Counted from the first letter of the stretch, positions 4,115 to 64,000 are shown. The stretch is 64,000 nt of DNA from an uncultured Hyphomicrobiales bacterium (GCA_964483325.1 CAZAAW010000002.1:88226-152225), one strand, 5' to 3'. Notes: generated by a model from the sequence alone, not told the origin. Translations and numbers: made by a program.

Positions 4115-4122
4115 GTATCCTT

Positions 4123-4620
4123 TCAGGCGCGCTCGGCAGAAGCCGTGTAGCGGCGCACGAAATCGGCCAGGTTCTCGGCGGCAGCCTGCTGGAATCGGGC
4201 AAATTCCTTGAGGCGCGCAGCAGCTGCGGCATTGTCGGGGCCGACGCGATCGGCAATGCCGTTGATGATCTCGCTGGTCCGGCGCATGCGGCCCATGAGG
4301 ATCGCCATCATGCGGGCGTAGCGGTTGGGGGACAGGCGGTAATAGTCCTGGCGGTCGCCGGGAACGGCGACGCGCTCGAGAAAGCCGAACTGCGCCAGGT
4401 TGCGCACATTGGTGCTGACGCTGGCGCGGCTGACCTGCAGGCGCTCCGCCAGCTCGCGCAGGCCCATGACGCGGTCTTCGGCGAGGAACAGGCCGACGAT
4501 GCGGCCGCTGATGCGCGGCTGGTTGTCCTCCTGCGCAAACAGGCCCATCTGCTCGACGAATTCGTCGAGCGGATCGCGGGCCGCGTCCTGGGCGGCGCGT
4601 TGCGGGGAGACGTGTTCCAT
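4123..4620 (-). CDS. GbsR/MarR-family winged-helix transcriptional regulator
   Basis: wHTH signature (LRELAERLQVSRASVSTNVRNLAQFGFLERV). I chose the internal Met (MEHVSPQ) at 4620 because AAGGAA lies 5 nt upstream. First gene of the efflux operon. Confidence 0.8.
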   Translation of the reverse strand: MEHVSPQRAAQDAARDPLDEFVEQMGLFAQEDNQPRISGRIVGLFLAEDRVMGLRELAERLQVSRASVSTNVRNLAQFGFLERVAVPGDRQDYYRLSPNRYARMMAILMGRMRRTSEIINGIADRVGPDNAAAAARLKEFARFQQAAAENLADFVRRYTASAERA

Positions 4621-4769
4621 GCCGATTCCTTCTGGCCGGTTCCCTTCAGTCGGCCGATGACGTAGGGAGCGCACATCGTTCAGTCAAGACTGAACAGAGT
4701 GACAATTTGTTGCGACGCACAAAATGGTGAACGCCGTATTGGCCCTGGCCCCTGGGGCAGGAGCGGCCG

Positions 4770-5324
4770 CTATGGGCCGGGCGGCGCGACGGTGAAGACG
4801 ATATCCGTCGGCTGGAAGCCGTCGCGCTCGACGAGGAGCTGGTAGGCGCCTTCGGCGGTGCGCATGGTGACGGTCGCCGTCGCCGGCGCCTTGCTGCGGG
4901 CGTCGACATAGCTTGCCGTGAAGGACAGCGCATCGTCCTCGGCGACGGTTCCGGCGAGAGCCGCCTCGGTCTCCATCTGCGGCGTCGCCAGGGCGCCGCT
5001 ATAGGTTCCGTCTGGCTCGGCGACGATGCGGCCGGATATTGTCGCGGTGTTGTTGCCGACGGCGCAGCGGCCCTTCTGGGTCAGGGTGGTCCCGGCTTCG
5101 TCGAGGCTGTTGGTGACGCGGCAATAGACGCGCTCCGGCGCCGCTTCGGCGTTCTGGCGCATCATGCCGCGGCCGACCCATTCGCCGGCCATCTGCGCCA
5201 GCCGGGCATCGGCAGCGGCAACCGCCGGGGCGCTCAGCCCGATGGCGACGAGGGCGAGGACTGCGGCAGCGCAGGCCCTGCTGCGCCGGTTTCTGGATCC
5301 TTCCGAGTGCTGCCGCCAAACCAT
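4770..5324 (-). CDS. secreted hypothetical protein (signal peptide)
   Basis: The N-terminus RNRRSRACAAAVLALVAIGLSAPAVAAADA looks like a Sec signal. I recognise no family. It overlaps the 3' end of the upstream MMPL gene by about 90 nt, so the start is uncertain. Confidence 0.5.
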   Translation of the reverse strand: MVWRQHSEGSRNRRSRACAAAVLALVAIGLSAPAVAAADARLAQMAGEWVGRGMMRQNAEAAPERVYCRVTNSLDEAGTTLTQKGRCAVGNNTATISGRIVAEPDGTYSGALATPQMETEAALAGTVAEDDALSFTASYVDARSKAPATATVTMRTAEGAYQLLVERDGFQPTDIVFTVAPPGP

Positions 5325-7579
5325 CGCCGTCCCGGTCCTGCTATCAGCGCCGGCAGGACGATGAGATCGCCCAGGACGCCGACGGCAAGGGTAATCATCA
5401 CCAGCTGCCCGAACAAGAAAGCGCCGGGCAGGCTGCTGGTTGCTGTCGTCGAGAGGCCGGCGAGGATGACCATCGTGGTGCCGATGATCACCGGCCCGAT
5501 GCGCCGCGCCGTCGCCTGGACGCGCTCGTTGAGGCTGCCGCCGCCATGTTCGCCGCGCAGCAGCGCATTGAGATAGTGGACCGTATCGTCGACGGCGATG
5601 CCATAGGCGATGGTCAGCGACACGACGGTGGTGAATTGCAGGCCGCGGCCCTGGACGTAGAGGAGGGCGCCGGTCGCCAGCAGCGGCAACAGGTTGGGCA
5701 CCAGCGCCAGCCAGCCGATGGCCGGCAGGCGAAAGGCGATCACCATCACCAGCAGCGCCGCGACGATGTCGCTGGCAAGGTTCCAGTTGAGCGCCGAGAT
5801 CGTGCGCGTGCTCTCGCGCGCCGTCACCACCGTCGCGCCGGTGACGATGGCATCGGGCGCCGCGGCGTGGGCCGCCGCCTCGATGCGCTCCGCCAGCGCC
5901 TCCGTCGCCTCGGTGGAGGCCTCGTTGACGGTGACGGTGATGACCGCCCCGGCCGCGCCGGTGAAGCGCTGCCCGGCGGCGCCGATGGAATCGTTGAGGA
6001 GCGCGTCGACGCGCCGGCTGGTATCGGCCGCGTCGGCGCCGCCGATCCAGTGGGCGATGCTGGCGACCGACATCGGGGCGTGAACGCCAGGGATCGCTGT
6101 CACCGCGTCCTGCACGGCGCCGATCCGCGCCAACCCTTCCGGGGAAGTCGGCGCCGCGCCGTGCAGCGGCACGATGATGTCGACCGGGAAGGCGCCGCCG
6201 AGCTTCTGGTCGATGCGGCCGAGGGCGGCATTGGCGGGATTGTCGCGCGGCAGGTGCTCGCGCACCGAATGCTCCACCGGCAGGGCGAGATAAGCGGCGC
6301 CGAAGACGAAGACGAGCAGCACCGCGGCGATGCTGATCGGCCAGGCATGGCGGGTGGAGAAACGGCCGATGGCGGCGCTCGGCCCGGCAAGCCAGCCGAA
6401 CAGGCTGTCGGTCAGCGAGCGGTCGACGCGCCAGCGGTCGCCGAGCAGCACGGCGATGAAGGCATGCACGGACAGGACGATGGCGGCCCCGGCCATGCTC
6501 GCGGCGGCGCCCAGCCAGCCGAATTCGCTGATCAGGCCGATGTCGGAATAGGTCAGCGACAGGAAGGCGACCGCCGTGGTGATGGCCGTCAGCATGCAGG
6601 CCGGCGCCACTTCCAGCAGCGCCAGCCGCTCGGCCTCGCGGGCCGAAGCGCCCTGGTCGCGATAGCGCCGCCAGGCATAGTTGAGATGCATCGTGTCGGC
6701 GTAGCCGATCACCATCACCAGGGCCGGGATGACATTGGTGATGACGGTGATGGGAAGGCCGAGCGCGCCGGTCCAGCCGAGGACGATGAGGCCGCCGGCG
6801 GCTCCCGGAACGGCGGTCATCAGCGAGGCGGTGCCGGAGCGGAAGAGGATCAGGCTGATGATGAGACCGATGACGAGGCCGACGCCGTTGAGCACGAACT
6901 GGTCGCGCAGCAGAAGGTCGACGACGCCGTAGCGGATGGCCGGAAAGCCGGTGACGGTGACGTTGACGCCGCTGCCTGCCAGCGTCGTCCTGGCCGCCTG
7001 TTCGACGGCAGCGCTGAGGCCGCGCTGTTCATCCAGCGTCGCCCGCGGCTTCGTCGGCGTCACCACGAACAGCATGGCGCGGGCATCGGCCGACAGGAGG
7101 CGCTCGCCGAGCAGCGGGTGAGCGCGGATGGCGGCGACGAGATCCGGCGACAGGCCGGCGGCGGGATCGGCGATGAGCGGCGGCGGCGTGTCGCCGTCGG
7201 CGGCCGGCGGCTGGCGCAGCGAGAACAGAGAGAAGACGCTGGAAACGCCGTCGATCAGCTGCAGCTCGAACTGGAAATCCTGCAGCCGCGGAAAGGTCGC
7301 CGGCGACCCGAGGTCGCCCTCGGCGAGGACCAGCAGCTCGTTCTCCGGATCGGCGAGGTCGCCGGTGGCGGCGACGAAGGTGCGGTAGGTCTCGGTGTCG
7401 CCGCTGAAGACGTCGCGCATCTCCTGGTCGAAGGAGACATGGAAGAGGCCGTAGATGGCCACGGCGGCAAGCACCGCCAGGATGGCCGCCATGAGCCGCG
7501 GCCGCTCCAGCGTCAAGAGGCCGACGCGCTCGAGCCCGAAGCCGAGGCTGAAGCGCGGGATGCGCAGGCGCCAGGCCAA
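5234..7579 (-). CDS. MMPL/RND-superfamily transporter
   Basis: 781 aa with two blocks of about 6 TM helices separated by soluble loops, the usual MMPL architecture. Confidence 0.85.
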   Translation of the reverse strand: MAWRLRIPRFSLGFGLERVGLLTLERPRLMAAILAVLAAVAIYGLFHVSFDQEMRDVFSGDTETYRTFVAATGDLADPENELLVLAEGDLGSPATFPRLQDFQFELQLIDGVSSVFSLFSLRQPPAADGDTPPPLIADPAAGLSPDLVAAIRAHPLLGERLLSADARAMLFVVTPTKPRATLDEQRGLSAAVEQAARTTLAGSGVNVTVTGFPAIRYGVVDLLLRDQFVLNGVGLVIGLIISLILFRSGTASLMTAVPGAAGGLIVLGWTGALGLPITVITNVIPALVMVIGYADTMHLNYAWRRYRDQGASAREAERLALLEVAPACMLTAITTAVAFLSLTYSDIGLISEFGWLGAAASMAGAAIVLSVHAFIAVLLGDRWRVDRSLTDSLFGWLAGPSAAIGRFSTRHAWPISIAAVLLVFVFGAAYLALPVEHSVREHLPRDNPANAALGRIDQKLGGAFPVDIIVPLHGAAPTSPEGLARIGAVQDAVTAIPGVHAPMSVASIAHWIGGADAADTSRRVDALLNDSIGAAGQRFTGAAGAVITVTVNEASTEATEALAERIEAAAHAAAPDAIVTGATVVTARESTRTISALNWNLASDIVAALLVMVIAFRLPAIGWLALVPNLLPLLATGALLYVQGRGLQFTTVVSLTIAYGIAVDDTVHYLNALLRGEHGGGSLNERVQATARRIGPVIIGTTMVILAGLSTTATSSLPGAFLFGQLVMITLAVGVLGDLIVLPALIAGPGRRWFGGSTRKDPETGAAGPALPQSSPSSPSG

Positions 7580-7826
7580 GCCGCTCTCCTAGCGGGTGCC
7601 CGGCGATAGCCGGCGGAAGGCTGCCCGCGTCATTTGCTGTTCCTCCCCGGCACGGCGCGCGGTCCGGCTTAGCCGAGGTGCGCCGGCGAAGTCAAAGACC
7701 GGCCGCCGCCCGGGATCGCGGCTTGACGCCGGCGCCAGCGCCAGGGTTGGCTTTTGCCGCTGCCGCCCGCCGGGCGGGACCGGAGCCGCGGCCGTGGATC
7801 ACCCTTTCACCAACGTCCAGTGGTTC

Positions 7827-9026
7827 ATGTCCGGTCAGCGCAACACGGCCTATTTCGGCGCCTTCACCGCCCGGCCGCTGTCGCCGGACGACGTGCGCGA
7901 GACGGTGCGGCGCATGCTGGCGCTGGCGCCGCAGTTCAACTGGCGCGAGGACCGGCGCGGGCAGCGCCACGTCGATGCGCGGCCTTTCGCGCTGGACGAT
8001 ATCATCCGCTACGAGACAGTCGAGACGCTGGACGGTCTTCCCGACATGGCGCTCGGCGCCCGGCCTGAGATCTTCGACGATTCGCGCCTGCCGGCGCTGC
8101 GCGTCGCCTGCTGGACGCGGCGCACGCCCATTCCGGACGGGCCGAACGCCTTCCTGCTGCTGCAAGCCTCGCATGCCCTCGGCGAGGGCGCCGATACGGC
8201 CGCCATCCTGCGCGGCCGCCCGGTGCTGCGCGCCGCCGCCGCGGCGCCGCAGGGCAGCCGGCTGATGCGCCTGCTGGCGCTGCCGCTCGCCTTCGTCATC
8301 GCACCGCTGCATCTCGTCGCGGCGCGCTTCCGGCGCCGCCATCGGCGACCCCTGGTGTTCCGCACGCTGGTCATCGACCGCGGCAGCGTCAAGGCGGCGG
8401 CGCGGCGGCTGGGCGTGCGCCAGAGCGCCCTGCTGTTCGGACTGGTGCTGTTCGTCCTGTTCGTCGGCCGCCGTGGCCTTGCCGGCCGCAAGCCCATCGT
8501 CTTCGGCCATTCGCATCTCCCGGCGGCGCCGCAGCCGGGCGACGACGGCTTCATCCGCATGCGCATGCGTACCGGCATGGCGTGGCCGAAGCGCGATGTC
8601 GCCGCCTTCGTCCAGGCGCTCGGCCGGCGCCTCGCCCGCACCCGGCGTCCCGACGGCGGCGGCCAGGTGCTGCAGATGGCGGCGCTCGGCGTCCACCGGC
8701 GCCTCGCCCGGCTGCTGCCGTTCCTCTACGGACCGCGGTTCTTCGCCTATGTGCCCTACGACTTCATCCTGGCGGTGCTGCCGCCGCATCGCCGTACCGG
8801 CGCCTTCGCCGATCTCGCCTTCCGCGATGTCTATGCCGGGGCGCATACGCCGGGCATCGGCAGCTGTGTCCTGGTCCCGCAGGGCGACAGGATCAGCCTG
8901 AACTTCCTTCTGGATGGGGAAGGCGTGGCGCGTTTCGGGCGGCTGACGCCGCTCCTGGCGGCGTTCGGCATCACCACGTGCGATCCGCTGGCGGCCGATC
9001 CGGCGCTGCGGACGGATGCCGCCTGA
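7827..9026 (+). CDS. hypothetical protein, possibly a WS/DGAT-like (condensation-fold) acyltransferase
   Basis: LLLQASHALGEGAD sits where WS/DGAT and PapA enzymes carry HHxxxDG. The C-terminal pattern (VLPPHRRTGAFADLAFRDVYAGAHTPGIGSCVLVPQGDRISLNF) resembles the WS/DGAT C-domain. An alternative GTG start is at 7794. The upstream part of the 476-aa track ORF is Arg-rich and unlikely to be coding. Confidence 0.45.
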   Translation: MSGQRNTAYFGAFTARPLSPDDVRETVRRMLALAPQFNWREDRRGQRHVDARPFALDDIIRYETVETLDGLPDMALGARPEIFDDSRLPALRVACWTRRTPIPDGPNAFLLLQASHALGEGADTAAILRGRPVLRAAAAAPQGSRLMRLLALPLAFVIAPLHLVAARFRRRHRRPLVFRTLVIDRGSVKAAARRLGVRQSALLFGLVLFVLFVGRRGLAGRKPIVFGHSHLPAAPQPGDDGFIRMRMRTGMAWPKRDVAAFVQALGRRLARTRRPDGGGQVLQMAALGVHRRLARLLPFLYGPRFFAYVPYDFILAVLPPHRRTGAFADLAFRDVYAGAHTPGIGSCVLVPQGDRISLNFLLDGEGVARFGRLTPLLAAFGITTCDPLAADPALRTDAA

Positions 9027-56557: not shown

Positions 56558-57457
56558 CTATTCGACGACCTGGTACTCGACGCGGCGGTCGAAGGCGAAG
56601 ATCTGGTCCTCGCTGTACTTGCTGGCGTCGTCGGGCGTGAACGGCTCCGACTCGCCGCGGGCGCTGATCTCGATCGGCATCCGGTAGCCGAGCTGCTTCA
56701 GGTAGTCGGCGACGCTGCGCGCCCGGCGGTCGGAGAGGTCGAGATTATACTGGTCCGAGCCACGCGGGTCGGTATGGCCGATGATCACCAGCTTGGCCGC
56801 CGGCACATCCTTGACGTAGTCGAAGATGTTCTGGACAGCGGCAATGCCGGCCGAGGTCAGGTCCGCCGATCCGGTATCGAACTGCACCGGCACCGGCACG
56901 GAGGTGGCGGTGAAGGTGCGGAAATGCGGGTCGGCGAGGCCGCTGACGCGGCCGCGGAAGGCACGGCTGGCGATGAAGGTCGGCGCCAGAGCGCGTGCCT
57001 GGACGGCGCGCTTGTAGGTCCGCTGCTCGACATCGGCGGGCGGCGCCTGCGGATTGGCGGCCGTGTCGCGCATGTCGTCGAGCGCCTCCTCATAGGTGGC
57101 GACGGCGCTCGCCCATTCCTCGCGGTCGTAATAGGCGTCGCCGAGGGCGACGAGCACCTGCCACGGCCGGCCATAGCGCGTCACGGCGCTGATGTCGGCC
57201 GGGGCAACGTCTGTTTGCAGCTCCGTCAGGGCGATGCGCGCCATCATGCGGCCGATCTGGCTGCGGAAATTGGCGTCGCAGGTGGGATCGCCCTGCATGG
57301 TCTGGAAGAGGCCGTCGAAGCGCTCGATGGAGCGCGACTGAAGCGCCGAGGTGATGTCGTCGTTCAGGGCGGCGCATTCGGCAGCCGCCGGACCCGCCGA
57401 CAGCGCCAGAAGCGCCATCGGCAGGGCGGCGGCCGCCCACAGGCGGGCAGCGCGCAT
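56558..57457 (-). CDS. secreted OmpA-C-like peptidoglycan-binding protein
   Basis: Signal peptide (ALPMALLALSAGPAAAE). C-terminal OmpA motif LVIIGHTDPRGSDQYNLDLSDRRARSVADYL. Its start is 1 nt after the stop of the upstream gene. Confidence 0.85.
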   Translation of the reverse strand: MRAARLWAAAALPMALLALSAGPAAAECAALNDDITSALQSRSIERFDGLFQTMQGDPTCDANFRSQIGRMMARIALTELQTDVAPADISAVTRYGRPWQVLVALGDAYYDREEWASAVATYEEALDDMRDTAANPQAPPADVEQRTYKRAVQARALAPTFIASRAFRGRVSGLADPHFRTFTATSVPVPVQFDTGSADLTSAGIAAVQNIFDYVKDVPAAKLVIIGHTDPRGSDQYNLDLSDRRARSVADYLKQLGYRMPIEISARGESEPFTPDDASKYSEDQIFAFDRRVEYQVVE

Positions 57458-57458
57458 C

Positions 57459-60218
57459 TTACTGCACCTGCAGCTTGATCGCCGAGCGCACGACGATGTC
57501 GTCGGCGGCCGGCGGGGCCGGCGGAGCCGCAGCGGGGATCTGCTGCTGCTGGGCGGCGGCCTCGATGATGATCTGGCGGGTGCGGGTCACCTGCTGGGCA
57601 ATATGCTGCTCATAATTGCCGATGTCGGTGAACTGCGCCTGCCGGAAGTTGTGCTGGATGTCGTCGACCGGCTTGTTCAGCACGCTGCATACCGCGATCA
57701 CCGTCTCCTCGCCATGATCCCGGAAGCGGAACTGGTAGGGAGCGCCGGCCGCCGGGAACTGGAAGTCCCTGCCGGCGACGATGGCATTGTTCTGCTCGAA
57801 GCTGTTCGGGTACAGCACCGTCGCCGTGCCCTTGCCGTCGACATTGATCAGCGTCAGGTAGCAGTCACGCTTGGTGCTGATGGTGAACACCGGCAGGTCA
57901 CCGACGCGGTAGGCGGCGGCGTTGGCGGTGATGGCGAAGTCGAAGTTGTGCGCGACGTCCGGCGCGGCGATCTGCGCGACGGTGACGACCGGCACCGGCC
58001 CGACCTCCTGCTTGAGGCTGGCAAGGTCCAGCATCTCGTCGTCGGAGACGCGCTCGACGAGGGCCGAGAACAGCCCCTCGAGATTGTCGCGCGGCACCAG
58101 GCCCTGGTCGAGACGCCGCTGCAGGCGGACGGCTTCGTCGGTGCCGGCGGTGGCCAGCGAGGCCTCGAACTCCTCCAACGGCTGGCCGAACTCGGCAGCC
58201 ACGAGACGAAGGTCGACGGCGCTTTCGAACTTGTTCGACAGCGCGTTGATCATCTCGACGCCGTTGAGTTTCAGCGTCGGATCAAGGCCGGCGGCCCGCA
58301 TCGCATTGATGAAGCGCTGCGTGTCGCCTTCCAGCAGGGCGTCCATCCTGTCATGGGGCGGATAGAGCGCCGCCACGGCCTCGCGTGCCGCCCGCGGGAA
58401 GGTGCGGCTGGCGAGAACCTGATCGCGGACCTCGTCGCGCGCCTTGCGGATGCCCTGGTCGTGGCAGCCCATGCAGGAGATGCCGTTGGTCACCGTCAGG
58501 TCGCGCCGCGAGATGTCGCGGACGATCGTCGTCGGACCCTTGGGAATGTGCGCGCCGGCCGACGTGTTCAGGTAGTAGCCCTGGAAGCCGTTCGGCAGGG
58601 AGAAGATCGACTCGCCGCCATCATGATGGAAGGCGAACTCGCCGTCGCCCGGCCCGAGCGGGAACTCGAACAGGCTCTGCCGCTCCCTGTTGCCGGCGAA
58701 GTCGTAGGAGGTCCAGAGGTAGCCGGTGCTGATCGGATGACGCTCGATCAGGCGGTTGTTCTGCGACACGCCCGACTGCTGGAAGGCGGCGCGCTGGGCG
58801 ATGAACCGGTTCAGATTGCCGGCGATATCGACATTCAGGTAGCGCTCGAACTCGGAAAAGTCGCTTGCCACGCCGTTGGCCGGCAGCCCGAGCAGCTGTT
58901 CGTAGAGCGGCGGCTGGGCGGCGGTGAAGGCGAACCAGTCGCCCCGGATATAGGGCAGCAGCGTCAGCGTCGCCGACGACACGAAGTCGAACATCGGGCT
59001 GTCGGGCTTGCTGGCATAGGGATAGACCGAGATGAGCTTGTCCCAGTCGGTCGCCGACCAGCCGACATCCTTCAGATTGAAGCGGATGATCGTCCCGGCG
59101 TCGTTGATGGCCTCGAGGCGCACGACGTCGGAGACGCGCGACAGCGAGTTCAGCAGCTTCACGACGGCCTGGCGATAGACCTCCATCTCCTGGTCGCTGG
59201 AGCAGGCATTGTAGAGATGCGTCAGCGTGATGTAGCGCGTGTCGGCAATGCGCGTCGGCGGCAGGTTCTGGATGTCCCGGGCCATGGCCTCGGTCTCCAT
59301 CACCGGCGTGATGAACTCGCGCGTGCTGCAGGCGGCCGCAACGTTGGCGCCGAGCGATTCGACCCAGGTGCGCAGGGCCGCGACATCCGCTTCCGTCGGC
59401 GGCTCGCCGCTGAACTCGTAGAAGACATCATACGGCATTTCCTGGTTGAGGATCTGCTGGATGAGCTTGGAGCCGTCGGGATTGCCGGGGGCGATGCGCA
59501 CCGGGTCTGCGGCGATCTCGTCGAGATGCAGGATATTGCCGAAATTCTTCGCCGGCTTGGCACGGCCGCCGAGCATGCCGTCCTGGTGGCAGCGGGCGCA
59601 GTGGCGGTCCAGCACGTCGAAGGCGGCGGCGGCGATTGGATCGGCCGGGCGCTCGATGCCCGGCGGCAGGGCTGCCACGTTAACCGGCGCTGCCGGGGCG
59701 GCCGGTGCTGCCGGAGCGGCGACCGCGGGCGGCGCGTCCGCCGGGCCGACGACGCCCGGGATCTCGATGCCGTCGAGCGGATCACCGGCCGGCGCGGCCG
59801 GCTGCTGCGCGATGGCCGGCGGAGCGGCAGGCGCATCAGCCGGCTGATCGATAACGCCGGGAATCTCGATGCCGGCGAGCGGATCGTCGTCCGGCGCGTC
59901 AGGCTGCTGCGCAATCGCCGGCGGAGCGGCGGGCGCATCGGCCGGCTGGTCGACGACGCCGGGGATCTCGATACCGGCCAGCGGGTCGTCGTCCGGCGCA
60001 TCGGCGGCCGGTCCGTCGACGACGCCGGGAATGTTGATGCCGGCGAGCGGATCGTCGGCGGGGGCGGCGGAGGCGCCGGGCTCGACCGTCAGCTGGCGCG
60101 GCGGCTGGGCGCCGTTCGCCGGCGGGTCGTCCTGCGCCAGCACCGCCGTCGCGGTGATGGCGACCGTGCCGCTGAGCAGCAGCGCGGTGCAGGTTATCTT
60201 TGCGTATCGGGCAAACAT
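57459..60218 (-). CDS. secreted 919-aa protein with Pro/Ala-rich tandem repeats, two CxxCH haem-c motifs and a C-terminal DUF4384-like domain
   Basis: Start taken at MFARYAKIT (ATG at 60218, with GGAGG 5 nt upstream). The signal peptide ends AVLAQ. CARCH is at 59586-59600 and CMGCH at 58461-58475. The C-terminal VGDLPVFTISTKRDCYLTLINVDGKGTATVLYPN pattern is also present. Confidence 0.8.
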   Translation of the reverse strand: MFARYAKITCTALLLSGTVAITATAVLAQDDPPANGAQPPRQLTVEPGASAAPADDPLAGINIPGVVDGPAADAPDDDPLAGIEIPGVVDQPADAPAAPPAIAQQPDAPDDDPLAGIEIPGVIDQPADAPAAPPAIAQQPAAPAGDPLDGIEIPGVVGPADAPPAVAAPAAPAAPAAPVNVAALPPGIERPADPIAAAAFDVLDRHCARCHQDGMLGGRAKPAKNFGNILHLDEIAADPVRIAPGNPDGSKLIQQILNQEMPYDVFYEFSGEPPTEADVAALRTWVESLGANVAAACSTREFITPVMETEAMARDIQNLPPTRIADTRYITLTHLYNACSSDQEMEVYRQAVVKLLNSLSRVSDVVRLEAINDAGTIIRFNLKDVGWSATDWDKLISVYPYASKPDSPMFDFVSSATLTLLPYIRGDWFAFTAAQPPLYEQLLGLPANGVASDFSEFERYLNVDIAGNLNRFIAQRAAFQQSGVSQNNRLIERHPISTGYLWTSYDFAGNRERQSLFEFPLGPGDGEFAFHHDGGESIFSLPNGFQGYYLNTSAGAHIPKGPTTIVRDISRRDLTVTNGISCMGCHDQGIRKARDEVRDQVLASRTFPRAAREAVAALYPPHDRMDALLEGDTQRFINAMRAAGLDPTLKLNGVEMINALSNKFESAVDLRLVAAEFGQPLEEFEASLATAGTDEAVRLQRRLDQGLVPRDNLEGLFSALVERVSDDEMLDLASLKQEVGPVPVVTVAQIAAPDVAHNFDFAITANAAAYRVGDLPVFTISTKRDCYLTLINVDGKGTATVLYPNSFEQNNAIVAGRDFQFPAAGAPYQFRFRDHGEETVIAVCSVLNKPVDDIQHNFRQAQFTDIGNYEQHIAQQVTRTRQIIIEAAAQQQQIPAAAPPAPPAADDIVVRSAIKLQVQ
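59748..60056 (-). repeat. in-frame tandem repeat encoding four DPL(A/D)GI(E/N)IPGV(V/I) units separated by Pro/Ala-rich spacers
   Basis: DDPLAGINIPGVVDGPAADAPD / DDPLAGIEIPGVVDQPADAPAAPPAIAQQPDAPD / DDPLAGIEIPGVIDQPADAPAAPPAIAQQPAAPAG / DPLDGIEIPGVV. Two central units of about 100 nt are near-identical. Confidence 0.8.
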
Positions 60219-60295
60219 CGTCGCCTCCATTCGGCTCAAGCAGATTTGAGGCTCAAGACCTCTGTTGCGGGGTCCGCATGGCTCGGTTCGTTCTT

Positions 60296-61783
60296 CTATT
60301 TTATTTCATAGCGCAGCACGGCCACCGACCAGTCATGCGAAACCGTCGGCTCGGTCACGGCTGCCGTCTGGGCAGGTGCGTTGAGGGCTGCGGCAATGGC
60401 CGGCAGGAACTCCTGCGTCGCCTCCTGCCGCGGAATGACCTCGATGCTGCGGGTCTTGACGGTCGGCGGCATCTCCACCGGGCCGTTGGTAACAAGGGCG
60501 ATCAGCGTGCCGCGCGACGGCGAGGTGGCATCGAAGCTGATGCCGTAATAGGCGTCCGGCACGGTGATCGGGCTGTTCGGCAGGATGACGCCAACGCGGC
60601 CGTCGCGGCGCGTGTGCTCGTTGGGGAAGAGCTGCACCAGCGTGCCGTCGTCCGACAGGTCGAGCAGCACCAGGTCGCCCTCGACCGGGCTGGTGACGGT
60701 GAAGCGGATATTGCGCGTGCCGAGCCGCACCGGCGACGGCGGGTCCTGGCTGAGCGTGACGTTGAGCGTGTTGCCCTTGCCGAAATAGTCGAGGATCTGG
60801 TCGGTGGTCAGCATCGGCGGCTCCGCCTGCGCCACGGCAACCACCGGCGCCGGCGCGAGAAGCGTGCTGCCGGCCGCGGCGGCGGGGCCGAGCGTCGGCG
60901 TCAGGCCGAGCGAGCAGCCCTCGACCGTCGCGCAGGCCTGCTGCGCCTGGTCGCGCAGATAGGCCAGCACTTCGGCATTGGAGACGGTGCCGTTGCCATT
61001 GGCGTCGGCGCCGGCCTGGGCGAGGGCGGCAACGAAAGCCGCGGTGAAGACACCCTCGCCGTCGGCGACGAGGGCCGTCTGGCCGCCGGCGGCGGCGGTG
61101 AAGACGGCGACGTCGCCGGACAGGCGATCGGTATCGAGGGCCGGACCTTCCGCCTTCTGCGCCTGCGCCGCCGGCTCGACGACGATCGAGCGGGTACGGT
61201 TGGCGATGATCGGGGCGCGGAAAGCGGCGCTCGGCGTGAAGGAGGTTTCCGCGTCGGCGGTCACGACGCCGGAATAGCCGGCATCGATCACCACCGACAC
61301 CTTGCGTCCAGTCATGGCGTCGATGAGCAGATTGAGCTCGTCGTCGCTGATCATGCCGGTGACGGCGCTGCCGACCACCTTGGCGTCGAAGGGCACCAGC
61401 GTCTCGTCGAGGCCGTCGGCCTCGTCGCCATCGTCGTCCGGCTGGAAGTAGCCGTAGCCGGAATAATAGAGAAAGACCCGCTCGCCCGGCTTGGTGCCGC
61501 TGACCAGCCAGTCGGTGATCGCCGACTTGATCCCCTCCAGCGTCGCCTCCTCGTTGGCGACGACGCGGATGTCGCTGTCGCCGTAGCCCAGCGTCTCGGT
61601 CAGGAGGCGCTGCACGGCGGCGATGTCGCGGCCGGCCGTGCCGAGCCCGGCGCTGCCCAGGGCGCTGTCGGCATAATGGTCGATGCCGATGAGAAGGGCG
61701 CGGTCGGCAAGGGCCGGCACGGCGGCCGCCGCCAGCATGGCGGCCGCTGCCGCACCCGAGAGGAGGAAGCGCCGGAGCGACAT
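60296..61783 (-). CDS. secreted pseudo-caspase (peptidase C14 fold, catalytic His and Cys both replaced) with an EF-hand loop and a DUF4384-like C-terminal domain
   Basis: Start at MSLRRFLLSG; the ATG shares one base with the upstream TAA. RALLIGIDHY, YYSGYGYF (Tyr at 61454-61456 where His is expected) and VIDAGYSG (Gly at 61277-61279 where Cys is expected). The first ~375 aa of the 870-aa track ORF are a shadow frame over the upstream gene. Confidence 0.8.
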   Translation of the reverse strand: MSLRRFLLSGAAAAAMLAAAAVPALADRALLIGIDHYADSALGSAGLGTAGRDIAAVQRLLTETLGYGDSDIRVVANEEATLEGIKSAITDWLVSGTKPGERVFLYYSGYGYFQPDDDGDEADGLDETLVPFDAKVVGSAVTGMISDDELNLLIDAMTGRKVSVVIDAGYSGVVTADAETSFTPSAAFRAPIIANRTRSIVVEPAAQAQKAEGPALDTDRLSGDVAVFTAAAGGQTALVADGEGVFTAAFVAALAQAGADANGNGTVSNAEVLAYLRDQAQQACATVEGCSLGLTPTLGPAAAAGSTLLAPAPVVAVAQAEPPMLTTDQILDYFGKGNTLNVTLSQDPPSPVRLGTRNIRFTVTSPVEGDLVLLDLSDDGTLVQLFPNEHTRRDGRVGVILPNSPITVPDAYYGISFDATSPSRGTLIALVTNGPVEMPPTVKTRSIEVIPRQEATQEFLPAIAAALNAPAQTAAVTEPTVSHDWSVAVLRYEIK

Positions 61784-63384
61784 TACTGGTCTCCCGAGGT
61801 GTAGATGCCGACAAGGCCGACCTGGAACTTCGTGTCGCCGAGGACCGTCGCCAGCGTCGAGGCAAGACCGGTGGCGCGGTCGGCGGTGCCCATCGTCCGC
61901 AGCGCCGCATGGAGGGCCGTGGCCGGCTCGGCGGTCAGGATGGCAACCAGATGCTCGGCGCCGAAGGGCGGATCCTGGACGCGCAGGCGCTGGCTCATCT
62001 CCTGGCCGGTCCAGTCGGTCAGCGTCTCCTCGCGGTTCTGCGGGATGAAGAATTCCACCCGGCCGTTGGGCGGCAGGTTGAACAGCGTCAGGTAGGGCAG
62101 CGTCGCCCCGCTCATGCGGAACTCGACGATGTCGCCGCGGCGGTTGACCTGGTTGCCGCTGGTCAAGGTCAGCGACAGCGGGTCGGCGGCGGCATGCGCC
62201 TTGAGATAGGCCAGTGCCGACCATTTCGAGAGCACGGCGGCAATGCCGTCGGGGCCGATCTGCTCGGCGACGCGGCCGCCGATGCGGTGGTCGACAGTGC
62301 CGGCGGCGACGTCCCAGATGAGGTCGGCCTCGGCTTCGTCGGTCGTCTGGGCGACGCCGGTCATTTCCGGCAGCGCCGCGTCGCCGCGGACGAGGACGCG
62401 CACCAGGATATCCTGCGGCGTCGTGGCGACGGTCGGCGCCTCGATGCTGCGATTGATGCGGATGACGGGCTTGGCGTCGGCGCCCAGCGGCAGCACGGAC
62501 GGGATCTGCTGGTTCTCGGCCTGGGTCTCGACCGTCGGCACCAGATAGGACAGCAGCTCCTGCTGGCTGAGGGCGCCGTCGCCATCCTTGTCGGCGGCGC
62601 CTTCGAGGGCGCGCGAGAAGGCCCAGCTGAGGGCGCCGCGCGGCTTGCCGTCGATCGTCAGCTCCGGCGTCAGCCGCCCCTCCTGGGTGGCGCCGATGAA
62701 GGTGACGGCCGAGAAATCCTCCTCGCCCATCTGGGCGAATTGCGGCCCGGGCAGCCGCAGCAGGTCGTCGGTCAGCGACGGATCCTCGAACGTGCCGGTG
62801 CGGTAGCGCACGGTGCGGCTGGAAATGTCGCGATACATCGTGCCGGAATGGCAGGAATCGGCGACGAACACGACCTCCAGGCCCTTGTCGTCGCCGGCCT
62901 TCAGCCACTCGAACATCTCGTCGTCGACGATGCGCTCCAGCGAGCCGGGGCCGCTCGGCGTATAGCCGCCAAGGAGGAAATTCTCGTTGAGGCCGTCCTC
63001 CTCGAAGTGCTGGCCCGGCGGCTCCGGCTCCTGGCTGCCATGACCGGCATAGGAGAAGATGACGGTGTCGCCGGGCTGCGCGGCATTGATCAGCCGGAAC
63101 CAGTTCTCCTGGATGGCGGCCTTGGTGGCCTGTGCGTCGGTGAGCAGCACGACTTCGGAAGCGCCGGCCTTGCGCAGCGTCTCGGCGATATCCTGCGCGT
63201 CGTTGACGGCGCCGAAGAGATCGTTGGCCGTGCCGACATAGTCGTCGATGCCGATGACGAGGCCGTAGGTGGCCGCCGCTGCCGGGAGAGCCGGAAGCGC
63301 CGCCGCGGCGAGACCGGCAAAGCCGATCAGCGGCGCGGCCCTTCGCATCCTGCGCAGCGATCCCATTAGCGTCGTCATGGACAT
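61783..63384 (-). CDS. secreted caspase-like cysteine protease (peptidase C14) with an EF-hand loop and a DUF4384-like C-terminal domain
   Basis: Signal peptide (APLIGFAGLAAAALPALPAAAA). YGLVIGIDDY, SYAGHGSQ (His codon 63040-63042) and VADSCHSG (Cys codon 62851-62853). EF-hand DKDGDGALSQQE. C-terminal GDIVEFRMSGATLPYLTLFNLPPNGRVEFFIPQN. Confidence 0.85.
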   Translation of the reverse strand: MSMTTLMGSLRRMRRAAPLIGFAGLAAAALPALPAAAATYGLVIGIDDYVGTANDLFGAVNDAQDIAETLRKAGASEVVLLTDAQATKAAIQENWFRLINAAQPGDTVIFSYAGHGSQEPEPPGQHFEEDGLNENFLLGGYTPSGPGSLERIVDDEMFEWLKAGDDKGLEVVFVADSCHSGTMYRDISSRTVRYRTGTFEDPSLTDDLLRLPGPQFAQMGEEDFSAVTFIGATQEGRLTPELTIDGKPRGALSWAFSRALEGAADKDGDGALSQQELLSYLVPTVETQAENQQIPSVLPLGADAKPVIRINRSIEAPTVATTPQDILVRVLVRGDAALPEMTGVAQTTDEAEADLIWDVAAGTVDHRIGGRVAEQIGPDGIAAVLSKWSALAYLKAHAAADPLSLTLTSGNQVNRRGDIVEFRMSGATLPYLTLFNLPPNGRVEFFIPQNREETLTDWTGQEMSQRLRVQDPPFGAEHLVAILTAEPATALHAALRTMGTADRATGLASTLATVLGDTKFQVGLVGIYTSGDQ

Positions 63385-63474: not shown

Positions 63475-64000
63475 TTACTGCGCCTGCGCCGCTTCCGGCT
63501 CCGCCGCTGCCGCGGCCGGCGCCGAGGTGATCGGCGGCCGGCTCATCAGGTAAGCGACGATGGCCTTCTGGTCCGCCTCCGGCAGGGCCTGCAATTCGCG
63601 CAGCACCTTGCCCATGCCGCCGCTGGAGATCGGCTTGCCGTCGGCATTGAGGCCGAACATGAAGACGTTGAACATGAAGTCGTCCAGCGTCAGCTTGCCG
63701 ATGCCGGTTTCCTTGTCCGGCGTCAGGTTGGGAACCGAACCGCGGCCTTCCAGCGACGGTCCGCCCGCCAGCTCGCGGCTCTCGTCAGGGCCGAGGATGA
63801 GGTTGCGCGGCGTATGGCACTCGCCGCAATGGCCGGGACCGCGCACCAGATAGGCGCCGTGGTTGACCTCCTCGCTGGCATCGGGGTCGGGCTCGAAGGT
63901 CTTGCCGTCGATATAGAGGAGCTTCCACAGGCCGACGCCGCGCCGGATGTTGAACGGGAACGGCAGGTCGGTTGCCGGCGGCTGGTTGGCGACCGGCGGC
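63475..64000 (-). CDS. c-type cytochrome, C-terminal part of a multihaem dehydrogenase-type cytochrome c subunit; 5' end outside the window
   Basis: The frame stays open to nt 64000 (PPVANQPPATDLPFPFNIRRGVGLWKLLYIDGKTFEPDPDASEEVNHGAYLVRGPGHCGECHTPRN). This pattern is typical of the third haem domain of membrane-bound alcohol/gluconate dehydrogenase cytochrome subunits. Confidence 0.75.
   Translation of the reverse strand, partial: PPVANQPPATDLPFPFNIRRGVGLWKLLYIDGKTFEPDPDASEEVNHGAYLVRGPGHCGECHTPRNLILGPDESRELAGGPSLEGRGSVPNLTPDKETGIGKLTLDDFMFNVFMFGLNADGKPISSGGMGKVLRELQALPEADQKAIVAYLMSRPPITSAPAAAAAEPEAAQAQ

What the first reader, a model, noticed from the sequence alone, without database searches (positions are those of the whole stretch)
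56558..63384. Four-gene envelope operon: active caspase, pseudo-caspase, dihaem repeat protein and OmpA-like anchor, linked by a shared DUF4384-like domain
Seen in sequence:
- Four consecutive minus-strand ORFs with a one-base start/stop overlap (TAATG, ATG 61781-61783 / TAA 61783-61785), a 77-nt gap and a 1-nt gap (57458).
- Each ORF has a Sec-type signal peptide.
- Gene 1 is a C14 caspase-like protease with an intact His/Cys dyad.
- Gene 2 is a paralogue with both catalytic residues replaced.
- Gene 3 is a 919-aa protein with two CxxCH motifs and Pro/Ala-rich repeats.
- Gene 4 has a canonical OmpA-C peptidoglycan-binding motif.
- Genes 1-3 each end in a similar beta-rich module of about 80 aa (xYLTLFNL/LVLLDLS/YLTLINV ... 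G ... LFPN/IPQN/LYPN) that matches my recollection of DUF4384.
- Genes 1 and 2 each contain a perfect 12-residue EF-hand loop.

Established knowledge: bacterial caspase homologues are mostly discussed as cytoplasmic effectors of conflict or abortive-infection systems. Protease/pseudo-protease pairs often act as regulator plus enzyme.

Inference: this may be a periplasmic, peptidoglycan-tethered proteolytic module gated by Ca2+ and possibly by redox state, with DUF4384 serving as the common assembly or targeting domain. Its function is unknown; it could involve envelope remodelling, stress or death signalling, or defence.
Basis: partly seen in the sequence, partly recalled or inferred. Interest (0 to 1): 0.85.

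Follow-up and report, generated by a model that had tools for sequence, protein, structure and literature searches.

The report
Exported caspase–haem protein envelope operon
A conserved operon in soil alphaproteobacteria (Hyphomicrobiales) exports a caspase-like protease, its inactive twin, a two-haem protein and a cell-wall anchor into the periplasm, which gives a concrete, testable setting for the unknown function of bacterial caspase relatives.

Summary
- The four minus-strand genes, their junctions (TAATG overlap, 77-nt gap, 1-nt gap), the intact His/Cys dyad in gene 1 and the Tyr/Gly replacement in gene 2 are all there.
- So are the two invariant CxxCH motifs in gene 3, the OmpA-type domain in gene 4, the shared DUF4384-like C-terminal modules and the EF-hand-like loops.

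The unit is probably five genes. A two-haem cytochrome c gene lies 90 nt upstream, cut by the window end. A strong terminator follows gene 4.

The four-gene set recurs in about 14 species-level genomes from at least five named groups of Hyphomicrobiales, twice in a different order. OmpA–caspase–DUF4384 also occurs as a single fused protein.

Gene 3 is the constant element. Where caspases are absent, it sits next to an ECF sigma factor, an anti-sigma-like protein, a subtilase and an OmpA protein. Its 560-aa two-haem core belongs to a large unannotated family (about 3,700 clusters). That family also forms the outer domain of membrane Ser/Thr kinases.

Best reading (inferred, not shown): a wall-anchored periplasmic proteolysis module steered by a haem sensor. 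Regulation by Ca2+ or redox state is untested. Several parts were already catalogued; the assembled system is not described.

The parts
63475..64000 (-). 3' part of an upstream two-haem cytochrome c gene ('cytU', 321 aa in full); probably the first gene of the operon. The window ends inside it.
   Evidence: The ORF contains GHCGECHTPRN. The full gene is seen in L087, which carries a gene encoding a protein identical to G4 and the same gene order. There it is followed 90 nt later by G1 and preceded by divergent DMT/MFS genes. No terminator was predicted in the 90-nt gap. The same family (f15, Cytochrom_C 36.7 bits) lies directly upstream of G1 in more than 12 related loci.
61783..63384 (-). G1: exported orthocaspase-type C14 protease of 533 aa. 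Signal peptide residues 1-38 (63271-63384); caspase domain 42-297 (62494-63261); His115 (63040-63042); Cys178 (62851-62853); a beta-rich middle domain; a divergent DUF4384-like domain at about 404-487 (61924-62175).
   Evidence: Peptidase_C14 at 60 bits. The dyad aligns to Mca1 4f6o. His and Cys are kept in 22 of 22 orthologues. AF2 model pLDDT 86, pTM 0.86. Foldseek: GSU0716 3bij E 2e-10, MALT1 caspase-Ig3 E 5e-9. C-terminal module versus G3 DUF4384 by hhalign: 88.8 %.
62557..62592 (-). EF-hand-like 12-residue loop of G1 (DKDGDGALSQQE, residues 265-276).
   Evidence: Canonical positions 1, 3, 5, 6, 8 and 12. Conserved in all but one (L062_10) of the G1/G2-type relatives examined. In the model it lies between helices 251-263 and 274-288, with a short strand at 271-273. 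Pfam EF-hand_1 gives only 14 bits against a cut-off of 25.4.
60296..61783 (-). G2: exported pseudo-orthocaspase paralogue of 495 aa. Signal peptide 1-26 (61706-61783); caspase-like domain 28-281 (60941-61702); Tyr110 at the His position (61454-61456); Gly169 at the Cys position (61277-61279); EF-like loop 260-271 (60971-61006); DUF4384 at about 352-434 (60482-60730).
   Evidence: Peptidase_C14 at 61.5 bits and DUF4384 at 22 bits. hhalign to G3 DUF4384: 97.6 %, E 3e-12. In orthologues the His position is Y/Q/H/N/I/L and the Cys position is G/S/C; only 3 of 16 keep both residues. The Asp two residues before the Cys position is retained (IDAGYSG).
57459..60218 (-). G3: exported two-haem protein of 919 aa. 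Signal peptide 1-28 (60135-60218); disordered Pro/Ala-rich repeat region 29-190 (59649-60134); conserved core 191-745 (57984-59648) with CARCH 207-211 (59586-59600) and CMGCH 582-586 (58461-58475); DUF4384 770-845 (57684-57911).
   Evidence: DUF4384 at 61 bits. Both CxxCH motifs and Met261 are invariant in 20 homologues. In 46 distant relatives the second CxxCH is invariant and the first is at least 90 % conserved; in ten of them checked directly the two motifs lie 350-371 residues apart. The first haem domain scores as PSCyt1 in 34 of those 46, and gives a weak FoxE hit (5mab, E 0.07). AF2 pLDDT 63: N-terminus disordered, core mostly helical, DUF4384 a beta sandwich. No PDB fold match at E <= 1e-3.
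56558..57457 (-). G4: exported peptidoglycan-binding protein of 299 aa. Signal peptide 1-26 (57380-57457) with no lipobox; TPR-like N-terminal domain at about 71-136 (57050-57247); OmpA_C domain 193-278 (56624-56881).
   Evidence: OmpA at 59.8 bits; TPR families below threshold at 17-20 bits. Pal/YiaD-like NCBIfam hits cover the C-terminal domain only. Its start overlaps the G3 stop by 4 nt in 9 of the 12 related G1-G2-G3-G4 loci that include G4.
56509..56533 (-). Intrinsic terminator 25 nt after the G4 stop codon; the end of the transcription unit.
   Evidence: An 11-bp stem with 7 GC pairs, a 3-nt loop and the tail TTCTTTGCCT. Sequence read.

Best explanation
What it is: a chromosomal operon of probably five genes (cytU, G1, G2, G3, G4) that builds a protease module in the periplasm, tethered to peptidoglycan.

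Proposed roles
- G1 is the only catalytic component. It is an Arg/Lys-directed C14 orthocaspase.
- G2 is its catalytically dead paralogue. It most likely pairs with G1 as a regulatory or substrate-holding partner, as pseudo-caspases do.
- G3 is a two-haem protein whose conserved core acts as a sensor or adaptor domain. The same core is the external domain of membrane Ser/Thr kinases elsewhere.
- G4 fixes the assembly to the cell wall through its OmpA_C domain and offers a TPR-like docking surface.
- The DUF4384 beta-sandwich present on G1, G2 and G3 brings the three together or to a common site.
- Proposed output: signal-dependent cleavage of one or more envelope proteins, with the haem state of G3 (and perhaps of cytU) as the input.
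- In sister lineages the same G3 + OmpA pair is wired to an S8 subtilase and an ECF sigma factor with an anti-sigma-like protein. This suggests regulated proteolysis that feeds into gene expression.

Shown versus inferred
- Shown: gene structure, domains, conservation, co-occurrence and fusions.
- Inferred: export, complex formation, the sensing role of the haems, the Ca2+ requirement, and the nature of the substrate.
For: - One transcription unit: overlapping or near-abutting genes, no internal terminator, a strong terminator after G4, and a divergent gene upstream of cytU.
- Functional coupling: G1-G2-G3-G4 in the same order in about 13 species-level loci from at least five named groups (Bauldia, Labrys, Methyloligellaceae, Hyphomicrobiaceae, Parvibaculaceae).
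- The same components in another order in Ensifer sp. MJa1 (all four, L084) and, less completely, Bradyrhizobium LjRoot220 (L062).
- OmpA + Peptidase_C14 + DUF4384 fused in one protein of about 650 aa in 13 clusters.
- Gene clusters rich in DUF4384, caspase and OmpA genes, with an ECF sigma factor, in Desulfogranum; similar clusters in L082 and L086.
- G3 as hub: of 58 G3 loci with full flanks, only 2 lack a neighbouring C14 or S8 protease, OmpA or peptidoglycan-binding gene.
- Sensor inference: the G3 core is found in 3,707 clusters. Among them is the architecture Pkinase, one transmembrane helix, core.
- Active and inactive pair: the dyad is kept in 22 of 22 G1 orthologues and lost in 13 of 16 G2 orthologues, while Asp at position -2 is retained. 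Retention of the acidic pocket in pseudo-orthocaspases is reported in PMC6426788.
- Shared module: hhalign.
- Housekeeping surroundings (BipA, E1 dehydrogenase, MBOAT) and no defence-system match.
Against: - There are no expression, localisation, interaction or activity data of any kind.
- Signal peptides were judged by simple rules, not by a trained predictor.
- The window cluster contains no sigma/anti-sigma pair or kinase, so no output pathway is visible here.
- The G3 core has no structural or sequence relative of known function. 'Sensor' rests only on its position in kinase architectures; it could be an enzyme.
- The G3 model is of moderate quality (pLDDT 63).
- G2 orthologues in three loci keep His and Cys, so 'pseudo-enzyme' is not universal.
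- Periplasmic Ca2+ follows the medium, which makes Ca2+ a poor switch.
Confidence: 0.4

Rival explanations
1. DUF4384 marks substrates, not partners. G1 is a processing or sortase-like enzyme that trims or transfers DUF4384-bearing proteins (G3, G2 and small DUF4384 proteins elsewhere), for example attaching them to the wall or to an outer-membrane component. Other clan CD enzymes do this kind of chemistry: PorU, the GPI transamidase and ligase-type legumains.
For: Clusters in other bacteria carry several small proteins that consist of DUF4384 only, next to caspases (L081, L082, L086), one of them beside a CsgG-like lipoprotein. This looks more like a set of cargo or building blocks than a set of regulators. 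In one type III-E CRISPR system the protein Csx30 is cleaved by the caspase-like protease Csx29, and in some other Csx30 proteins the C-terminal domain is DUF4384 (bioRxiv 10.1101/2022.08.17.504292). Transpeptidation by clan CD enzymes is established knowledge.
Against: The protease itself and its dead paralogue also carry the domain, which fits co-assembly better. No conserved cleavage or sorting motif was seen at the C-termini: all three end in a beta strand that belongs to the fold. The G3 core is far more conserved than a passive cargo would need to be.
Confidence: 0.2
2. The proteases serve the cytochromes. The operon is primarily a periplasmic electron-transfer or detoxification unit (cytU, G3 and, in relatives, cytochrome c'), and G1/G2 mature, turn over or quality-control these haem proteins.
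For: A two-haem cytochrome c lies directly upstream of G1 here and in more than 12 loci, and cytochrome c' precedes it in about 10 of them. An Ensifer locus has a ferric-reductase-like gene next to the G3 homologue.
Against: About half of the G3 loci have neither cytU nor cytochrome c' but an ECF sigma factor, an anti-sigma-like protein and a subtilase. Fusion of the G3 core to kinases, TPR, WD40 and FGE-sulfatase domains points to signalling rather than respiration. No oxidoreductase partner is encoded in the cluster.
Confidence: 0.12
3. It is an envelope-acting defence or suicide system. A phage or a damage signal activates the caspase, which destroys envelope proteins and kills the cell.
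For: Many characterised bacterial caspase-like proteases are defence effectors (established knowledge). One related cluster (L082) is flanked by transposases and a reverse transcriptase. G1 and G2 hit PADLOC's generic 'caspase' model.
Against: No known system matched. The neighbours are housekeeping genes. The G3 family appears vertically conserved across Hyphomicrobiales, with stable flanks within genera. There is no NTPase, nuclease or other sensor typical of defence islands.
Confidence: 0.08
4. The genes are neighbours without a common function.
For: None beyond the absence of experimental data.
Against: Conserved order across several named groups of Hyphomicrobiales, conserved 4-nt overlaps, the same content after rearrangement, domain fusions, and a domain shared by three products.
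Confidence: 0.03

Closest known systems
Bacterial orthocaspases and pseudo-orthocaspases (MEROPS C14; surveys PMC3501461 and PMC6426788; MaOC1 of Microcystis)
   Same: G1 and G2 have the C14 fold. G1 has the His-Cys dyad and the DSCHSG motif with Asp at -2. G2 has substituted dyad residues with an acidic pocket residue retained. These are alphaproteobacteria of the order Rhizobiales/Hyphomicrobiales, where most pseudo-variants were found. DUF4384 fusions and OmpA in caspase operons had been noted before.
   Different: The surveys treat single proteins. They describe neither the active + inactive tandem pair nor the constant two-haem partner. The Tyr/Gly dyad is not among the common variants listed (YS, YA, FS, QC, HA). 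No exported member has been studied experimentally as far as the searched literature shows.
Enzyme and pseudo-enzyme caspase pairs (caspase-8/cFLIP; Trypanosoma MCA3/MCA4)
   Same: A catalytically dead paralogue is encoded alongside an active one. G2 keeps the fold and a pocket residue.
   Different: Here the pair is bacterial, periplasmic and translationally coupled in one operon. Heterodimer formation is untested.
MALT1 paracaspase (caspase-Ig3) and GSU0716 (PDB 3bij)
   Same: These are the best structural matches of the G1 model: a caspase domain followed by a beta-sandwich domain.
   Different: Sequence identity is 12-21 %. MALT1 is a cytoplasmic eukaryotic scaffold-activated enzyme. GSU0716 has no known function.
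Regulated envelope proteolysis that controls ECF sigma factors (DegS-RseA-sigmaE; Prc/CtpA in cell-surface signalling)
   Same: In about 27 related loci the G3 + OmpA pair is encoded with a secreted protease (S8), a membrane anti-sigma-like protein and an ECF sigma factor. A Desulfogranum cluster combines caspases, DUF4384 proteins, OmpA and an ECF sigma factor.
   Different: The window operon has no sigma/anti-sigma pair. The protease classes differ, and no cleavage of an anti-sigma factor is shown.
Type III-E CRISPR 'Craspase' (Csx29 protease and its substrate Csx30)
   Same: A caspase-like protease, plus a partner whose C-terminal domain is DUF4384 in some variants and which controls an ECF-type sigma factor (bioRxiv 10.1101/2022.08.17.504292).
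   Different: Craspase is cytoplasmic, RNA-guided and uses a CHAT-type protease. There are no CRISPR genes here.
Planctomycete cytochrome C (PSCyt1) proteins and FoxE
   Same: The first haem domain of the G3 family scores as PSCyt1 in 34 of 46 distant relatives. It has the CxxCH ... PGxPxxS ... MP pattern also seen in FoxE.
   Different: The roughly 450 residues that follow, including the second haem site, match no Pfam, NCBIfam or PDB entry.

Membership tests
Peptidase C14 (caspase/metacaspase/orthocaspase) | Caspase-haemoglobinase fold | tested here: met
   Pfam PF00656: 60.1 bits (G1) and 61.5 bits (G2) against a cut-off of 21.4. G1 model pLDDT 86; Foldseek 3bij E 2e-10; MALT1 and caspases 3, 7 and 9 also matched.
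Peptidase C14 (caspase/metacaspase/orthocaspase) | Catalytic His-Cys dyad | tested here: met
   G1 His115 and Cys178 align to the Mca1 dyad and are conserved in 22 of 22 orthologues. This row refers to G1 only.
Peptidase C14 (caspase/metacaspase/orthocaspase) | Cleavage after Arg/Lys, with an acidic S1 pocket | tested here: inconclusive
   Asp62 (in the NDA motif) and Asp176 (two residues before Cys) are invariant in the G1 family, as in metacaspases. Activity cannot be tested with these tools.
Pseudo-orthocaspase (as defined in PMC6426788) | p20-type domain with His and/or Cys substituted | tested here: met
   G2 has Tyr110 and Gly169. In 16 orthologues, 13 have lost at least one of the two residues.
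DUF4384 (PF14326) | Score above the Pfam gathering threshold (27 bits) | tested here: met
   G3: 61 bits.
DUF4384 (PF14326) | The same test for the C-terminal modules of G1 and G2 | tested here: inconclusive
   G2 scores 22.2 bits and G1 16.3 bits, both below threshold. Profile-profile comparison gives 97.6 % (E 3e-12) and 88.8 % (E 2.5e-6) to the G3 module. Most G2 homologues carry a precomputed PF14326 annotation; none of the listed G1 homologues does.
OmpA_C-like peptidoglycan-binding domain (PF00691) | Domain score, plus the conserved Asp/Arg peptidoglycan-binding motif | tested here: met
   59.8 bits against 27.2. The motif TDPRG...NLDLSDRRA is present. Binding itself is not testable here.
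c-type cytochrome | CxxCH haem-attachment motif in an exported protein | tested here: met
   There are two motifs. Both are invariant in close homologues. In distant homologues the second is invariant and the first is at least 90 % conserved. Met261 is invariant in close homologues, and a signal-peptide-like N-terminus is present.
c-type cytochrome | Match to a curated cytochrome c family above threshold | tested here: not met
   Cytochrom_C 18.0 bits (cut-off 21.3) and Cytochrome_CBB3 16.8 bits (cut-off 27) for the window protein. Distant relatives do reach PSCyt1. Covalent haem is not testable here.
EF-hand | Canonical 12-residue loop within a helix-loop-helix | tested here: met
   The sequence fits positions 1, 3, 5, 6, 8 and 12 in both G1 and G2. 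The helices flanking the loop are seen in the G1 model.
EF-hand | Family score above threshold, and paired EF-hands | tested here: not met
   EF-hand_1 gives 14 bits against 25.4 for G1 and nothing for G2. There is a single loop per protein. Ca2+ binding is not testable.
Known anti-phage defence systems (PADLOC-DB 2.0) | Match to system-specific component models | tested here: not met
   Only a generic 'caspase' model and MotB/ZorB-type OmpA similarity matched; G3 matched nothing.
ECF-sigma-linked regulated proteolysis module | Sigma factor and anti-sigma factor encoded with the protease | tested here: not met
   Neither is present within the window operon or its immediate flanks. Both are present in about 27 related G3 loci and in the Desulfogranum locus L081.

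The most novel reading that the evidence does not exclude
The 560-aa two-haem core of G3 defines a large, unannotated class of extracytoplasmic haem sensors: about 3,700 clusters at 50 % identity, from Hyphomicrobiales to Planctomycetota. These sensors would report redox state or a small ligand to different outputs. The outputs would be periplasmic caspases (here), subtilases with ECF sigma factors, or membrane Ser/Thr kinases. On this reading the window operon is the first recognisable case of a signal-controlled caspase acting inside the bacterial envelope, assembled through DUF4384 and anchored to the wall.
Probability: 0.25. Interest if true: 0.85.

Novelty: new variant of a known kind. 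Interest (0 to 1): 0.6.

Why it matters
Thousands of bacterial caspase relatives are known, yet outside a few cytoplasmic defence systems nobody knows what they do.

This operon places an active caspase and its inactive paralogue in a defined compartment with defined partners. Those partners are a haem protein, a wall anchor and an upstream cytochrome.

The arrangement is conserved widely enough to be studied in cultivable strains of Labrys, Ensifer and Bradyrhizobium.

It also brings to light a very large two-haem domain family with no annotation. That family is attached to kinases and to sigma-factor circuits, so it may be a general envelope sensor.

If the link holds, it would extend caspase biology to signalling in the bacterial envelope.

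Tried and rejected
- PDB sequence-profile search with the G3 family found only a marginal FoxE hit on the first haem domain.
- Foldseek of the G3 model gave no match at E <= 1e-3, only weak Ig-like, MG-domain and PKD hits on the DUF4384 part. The core fold therefore stays unassigned. The model is only of moderate quality, so this is not proof of a new fold.
- NCBIfam gave nothing for G3 or cytU.
- Looking up the exact G2 protein (P0121) and the fusion protein P0205 on contigs failed. The organism could not be named. The best named relatives are Bauldia, at 56-57 % identity for G3.
- P0113 looked like a pseudo-caspase fused to G3. I rejected it as evidence because its contig is a 3x-coverage long-read assembly.
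- A Tat signal for G2 (SLRRFLL) was considered and dropped, because the motif is not conserved in orthologues.
- A lipoprotein anchor for G4 was considered and dropped: there is no lipobox, because Glu precedes the Cys.
- Rfam found no RNA element in the region, and no sigma-70-like promoter was found. This means little in a genome of 68-70 % GC.
- Literature searches for the combination (orthocaspase + periplasm; Peptidase_C14 + OmpA; caspase + ECF sigma; PSCyt1; GSU0716) found only the two survey papers and no functional study.
- My first two rounds of ORF picking mis-called G2 because its frame stays open into G1. This was corrected.

Full report
**1.

ORF listing and direct reading confirm four minus-strand genes at the stated coordinates:
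- G1, 61783-63384, 533 aa.
- G2, 60296-61783, 495 aa.
- G3, 57459-60218, 919 aa from an ATG with a GGAGG 7 nt upstream.
- G4, 56558-57457, 299 aa.

The junctions are as described: CAGTAATGTCG (1-nt overlap), a 77-nt gap, and TAAGATG (1-nt gap). Third-position GC of 0.89-0.90 marks these frames as the real ones. The long ORFs on the other strand are high-GC artefacts.

Pfam gives Peptidase_C14 for G1 (60 bits) and G2 (61.5 bits), DUF4384 for G3 (61 bits), and OmpA for G4 (59.8 bits).

G1's YAGHGSQ and DSCHSGT align to the catalytic His and Cys of yeast metacaspase Mca1. G2 has Tyr110 and Gly169 at those positions.

G3 has CARCH (207) and CMGCH (582). It also has a Pro/Ala-rich N-terminal region encoded by a 102-nt tandem repeat.

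All four N-termini have the n-region, hydrophobic core and AxA site of Sec signal peptides. This is a rule-based reading; no trained predictor was available. Two things agree with it. c-type haem attachment and OmpA_C domains both belong to the periplasm. In most orthologues whose start could be called, the caspase domain starts directly after a similar cleavage site.

**2. The shared module and the EF-like loop**

G2 (22 bits) and G1 (16 bits) are below Pfam's DUF4384 threshold. I therefore built family alignments of the three C-terminal regions and compared the profiles:
- G2 versus G3: 97.6 % probability, E 3e-12.
- G1 versus G3: 88.8 %, E 2.5e-6.
- G1 versus G2: E 5e-4.

Homology is well supported for G2 and reasonably supported for G1.

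The loops DKDGDGALSQQE (G1) and DANGNGTVSNAE (G2) fit the EF-hand loop consensus. They are conserved in all but one of the 38 G1/G2-type relatives examined.

In a confident model of G1 (pLDDT 86, pTM 0.86), the loop lies between helices 251-263 and 274-288, with a short strand at loop positions 7-9. That is EF-hand geometry.

There is only one loop per protein, and the Pfam EF-hand score is below threshold. 'EF-hand-like Ca2+ site' is therefore the fair description. Whether it regulates or merely stabilises the protein is open.

**3. Extent of the unit**

A strong intrinsic terminator sits 25 nt after the G4 stop (11-bp stem, T-rich tail; 56533-56509, minus strand). No terminator was predicted in the intergenic gaps between the genes; the only other minus-strand hit within the operon is a weak one inside the G1 coding sequence.

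Upstream, the window ends inside another minus-strand gene with a GHCGECH haem motif.

A public contig (L087) that encodes a protein identical to G4, with the same gene lengths and order, shows this gene in full. It is a 321-aa two-haem cytochrome c, 90 nt from G1, and is preceded by divergently oriented transporter genes.

The operon is thus probably cytU-G1-G2-G3-G4.

The wider surroundings are housekeeping: BipA, a 2-oxoacid dehydrogenase E1, an MBOAT acyltransferase and a SAM methyltransferase. There are no mobile-element or defence-island features.

**4. Comparative genomics**

G3 has hundreds of homologues at about 50-65 % identity. Those that carry an organism name are Hyphomicrobiales.

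A scan of one genome per GTDB species found 202 relatives. I examined the best 80 loci by tblastn with the window proteins, and by my own gene calling and clustering.

The order G1-G2-G3-G4 recurs in about 13 loci from Bauldia, Labrys, Methyloligellaceae, Hyphomicrobiaceae, Parvibaculaceae and unnamed lineages. In 9 of the 12 such loci that include G4, G3 and G4 overlap by 4 nt.

cytU precedes G1 in more than 12 loci, and cytochrome c' precedes cytU in about 10.

The same four components occur in a different order in Ensifer sp. MJa1 (G3-like, OmpA, caspase, caspase-DUF4384). A less complete rearranged version occurs in Bradyrhizobium sp. LjRoot220. Conservation of content despite rearrangement argues for function rather than inherited neighbourhood.

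Methyloceanibacter has G1-G3 followed by a peptidoglycan-binding pseudo-caspase instead of G2 and G4.

Most informative is the largest group, about 27 loci from Afipia, Bradyrhizobium and relatives. It has no caspase next to G3. Instead it has an ECF sigma factor (PRK12515 type, 348 bits), a membrane anti-sigma-like protein, a secreted S8 subtilase and a small OmpA protein.

Of 58 loci with complete flanks, only two have none of these partners.

G3 is therefore the hub. It is almost always encoded with an exported protease and a wall-binding protein.

**5. Beyond the order Hyphomicrobiales**

Homologues of G2 include 13 clusters in which OmpA, Peptidase_C14 and DUF4384 are fused in one protein of about 650 aa, for example WP_424946640.1 from Ca. 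Spongiihabitans. This is a classic fusion link between G4-type and G1/G2-type functions.

Their loci, and one in Desulfogranum mediterraneum, contain rows of small DUF4384-only proteins and further caspases. Individual loci add an OmpA gene, an ECF sigma factor or a CsgG-like lipoprotein.

The theme of caspase + DUF4384 + OmpA in the envelope is therefore broader than this operon. The two-haem G3 is the version found in Hyphomicrobiales.

**6. What G3 is**

The AF2 model (pLDDT 63) shows three parts:
- a disordered N-terminal 185 residues;
- a mostly helical core at 190-735, with both haem sites in low-confidence loops, as expected without haem;
- a beta-sandwich DUF4384 domain.

There is no PDB match at E <= 1e-3. 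The only sequence-profile hit is a marginal one, to the iron-oxidising cytochrome FoxE over the first haem domain.

An exhaustive phmmer search with the core alone found 3,707 representative clusters, 1,510 of them at E <= 1e-30. In 46 distant members:
- the second CxxCH is invariant and the first is at least 90 % conserved; in ten members checked directly the two motifs lie 350-371 residues apart;
- the first haem domain scores as PSCyt1 in 34;
- the core is combined with DUF4384, TPR, WD40, FGE-sulfatase and SHD1 domains (the SHD1 case in a planctomycete, Stieleria);
- in six proteins an N-terminal Ser/Thr kinase domain accompanies the core; in the five of these checked, a single transmembrane helix separates the two.

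In those proteins the core is the external domain of a receptor kinase. That is the basis for reading the core as a sensor or ligand-binding module. It is an inference from architecture, not a demonstrated property.

**7. The caspase pair**

G1 orthologues keep His and Cys in 22 of 22 cases. Asp62 and Asp176, the acidic pocket residues of metacaspases, are invariant in the G1 family.

In G2 orthologues the His position is Y, Q, H, N, I or L, and the Cys position is G, S or C. Only three of 16 keep both. This fits a paralogue released from catalytic constraint but kept for another role.

G2 retains the Asp two residues before the former Cys. The pseudo-orthocaspase survey reports that the acidic pocket is retained in such proteins (PMC6426788).

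The G1 model is closest to the bacterial caspase-like protein GSU0716 and to MALT1 caspase-Ig3. Both have a caspase domain followed by beta-sandwich domains.

**8. Mechanism**

The best-supported account is a wall-anchored periplasmic proteolysis module:
- G1 cuts.
- G2 partners G1.
- G3 senses or adapts.
- G4 anchors.
- DUF4384 co-localises G1, G2 and G3.
- cytU may feed or poise the haems.

The sister architecture with a subtilase and a sigma/anti-sigma pair suggests that the general purpose is signal-dependent proteolysis in the envelope.

I give this 0.4, because every functional step is inferred. The rivals are:
- DUF4384 as a substrate tag for a processing or sortase-like caspase (0.2).
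- Proteases serving cytochrome biogenesis or turnover (0.12).
- Envelope-acting defence (0.08).
- Chance neighbours (0.03).

**9. Relation to what is known**

The two surveys of prokaryotic caspase homologues had already noted several of the parts. PMC3501461 records probable signal peptides and OmpA in 14 caspase operons. PMC6426788 records the concentration of pseudo-orthocaspases in Rhizobiales and fusions to DUF4384.

No paper in the searched library describes the active + inactive tandem, the two-haem partner, the alternative subtilase/ECF wiring, or any experiment on an exported member. PADLOC recognises no defence system here.

I therefore class the finding as a new variant of a known kind. 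It is a real, conserved and uncharacterised system built partly from catalogued parts.

**10. Verdict**

Interest is 0.6. It is still substantial, because the operon makes the function of bacterial orthocaspases experimentally approachable and exposes a very large unannotated haem-domain family.

Noticed in passing
window 63475-64000 (minus strand); full gene in L087 3018-3983: A two-haem cytochrome c gene is cut by the window end. It lies 90 nt upstream of G1 on the same strand, with no predicted terminator between them. The same family precedes G1 in more than 12 related loci, often after a cytochrome c' gene. It is probably the first gene of the operon.
   Followed up: partly
L007, L015, L017, L063 and about 23 other loci, roughly 3000-8000 in each (upstream of the G3 homologue): In Afipia, Bradyrhizobium and relatives the G3 homologue follows a conserved set: ECF sigma factor (PRK12515 type), a membrane anti-sigma-like protein, an S8 subtilase and a small OmpA protein. 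This looks like an uncharacterised sigma-factor circuit.
   Followed up: partly
G3 core, window 57984-59648; relatives P0271, P0276, P0295, P0278, P0338: The 560-aa two-haem core has about 3,700 relatives at the 50 %-identity cluster level and no Pfam or NCBIfam model beyond its first 60 residues (PSCyt1). It occurs as the external domain of one-pass Ser/Thr kinases, sometimes followed by an FGE-sulfatase domain, and also in DnaJ-TM-core-TPR proteins.
   Followed up: partly
L086 5059-8935 and L082 6667-10040: Two small proteins that consist only of DUF4384 precede an OmpA-caspase-DUF4384 fusion gene. In L086 a CsgG-like lipoprotein gene comes first. This hints at a secretion or assembly role for DUF4384 proteins.
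   Followed up: no
L081 6326-16311 (Desulfogranum mediterraneum, AUCW01000023.1): Nine consecutive same-strand genes: caspase, caspase-DUF4384, DUF4384, DUF4384, DUF4384-caspase, DUF4384, ECF sigma factor, an unknown protein of 199 aa, and OmpA. This is the same theme in a different phylum.
   Followed up: no
window 59747-59999 (and 59949-60086): A 102-nt tandem repeat (2.5 copies, 86 % identical) encodes the DDPLAGIEIPGV...PAAPPAIAQQP units of G3's disordered N-terminus. This region differs in length and sequence in every homologue, so it is likely a rapidly evolving spacer.
   Followed up: partly
window 52621-55561 (plus strand): An MBOAT-family O-acyltransferase (601 aa) is followed, 10 nt later, by a 374-aa protein with an N-terminal membrane anchor, a Pro/Ala-rich tail and no Pfam match. 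The pair resembles polysaccharide or wall O-acylation systems. It converges on the methyltransferase gene next to the operon.
   Followed up: no
L033, L049, L055, L058 and L079, downstream of the G3 homologue: A 567-aa protein combines a PG_binding_1 domain with a caspase-like domain that keeps the His but has lost the Cys (LLETEYG). It carries the same GNGDGELDSAEI loop. This appears to be a second, independent route to a wall-bound pseudo-caspase.
   Followed up: no
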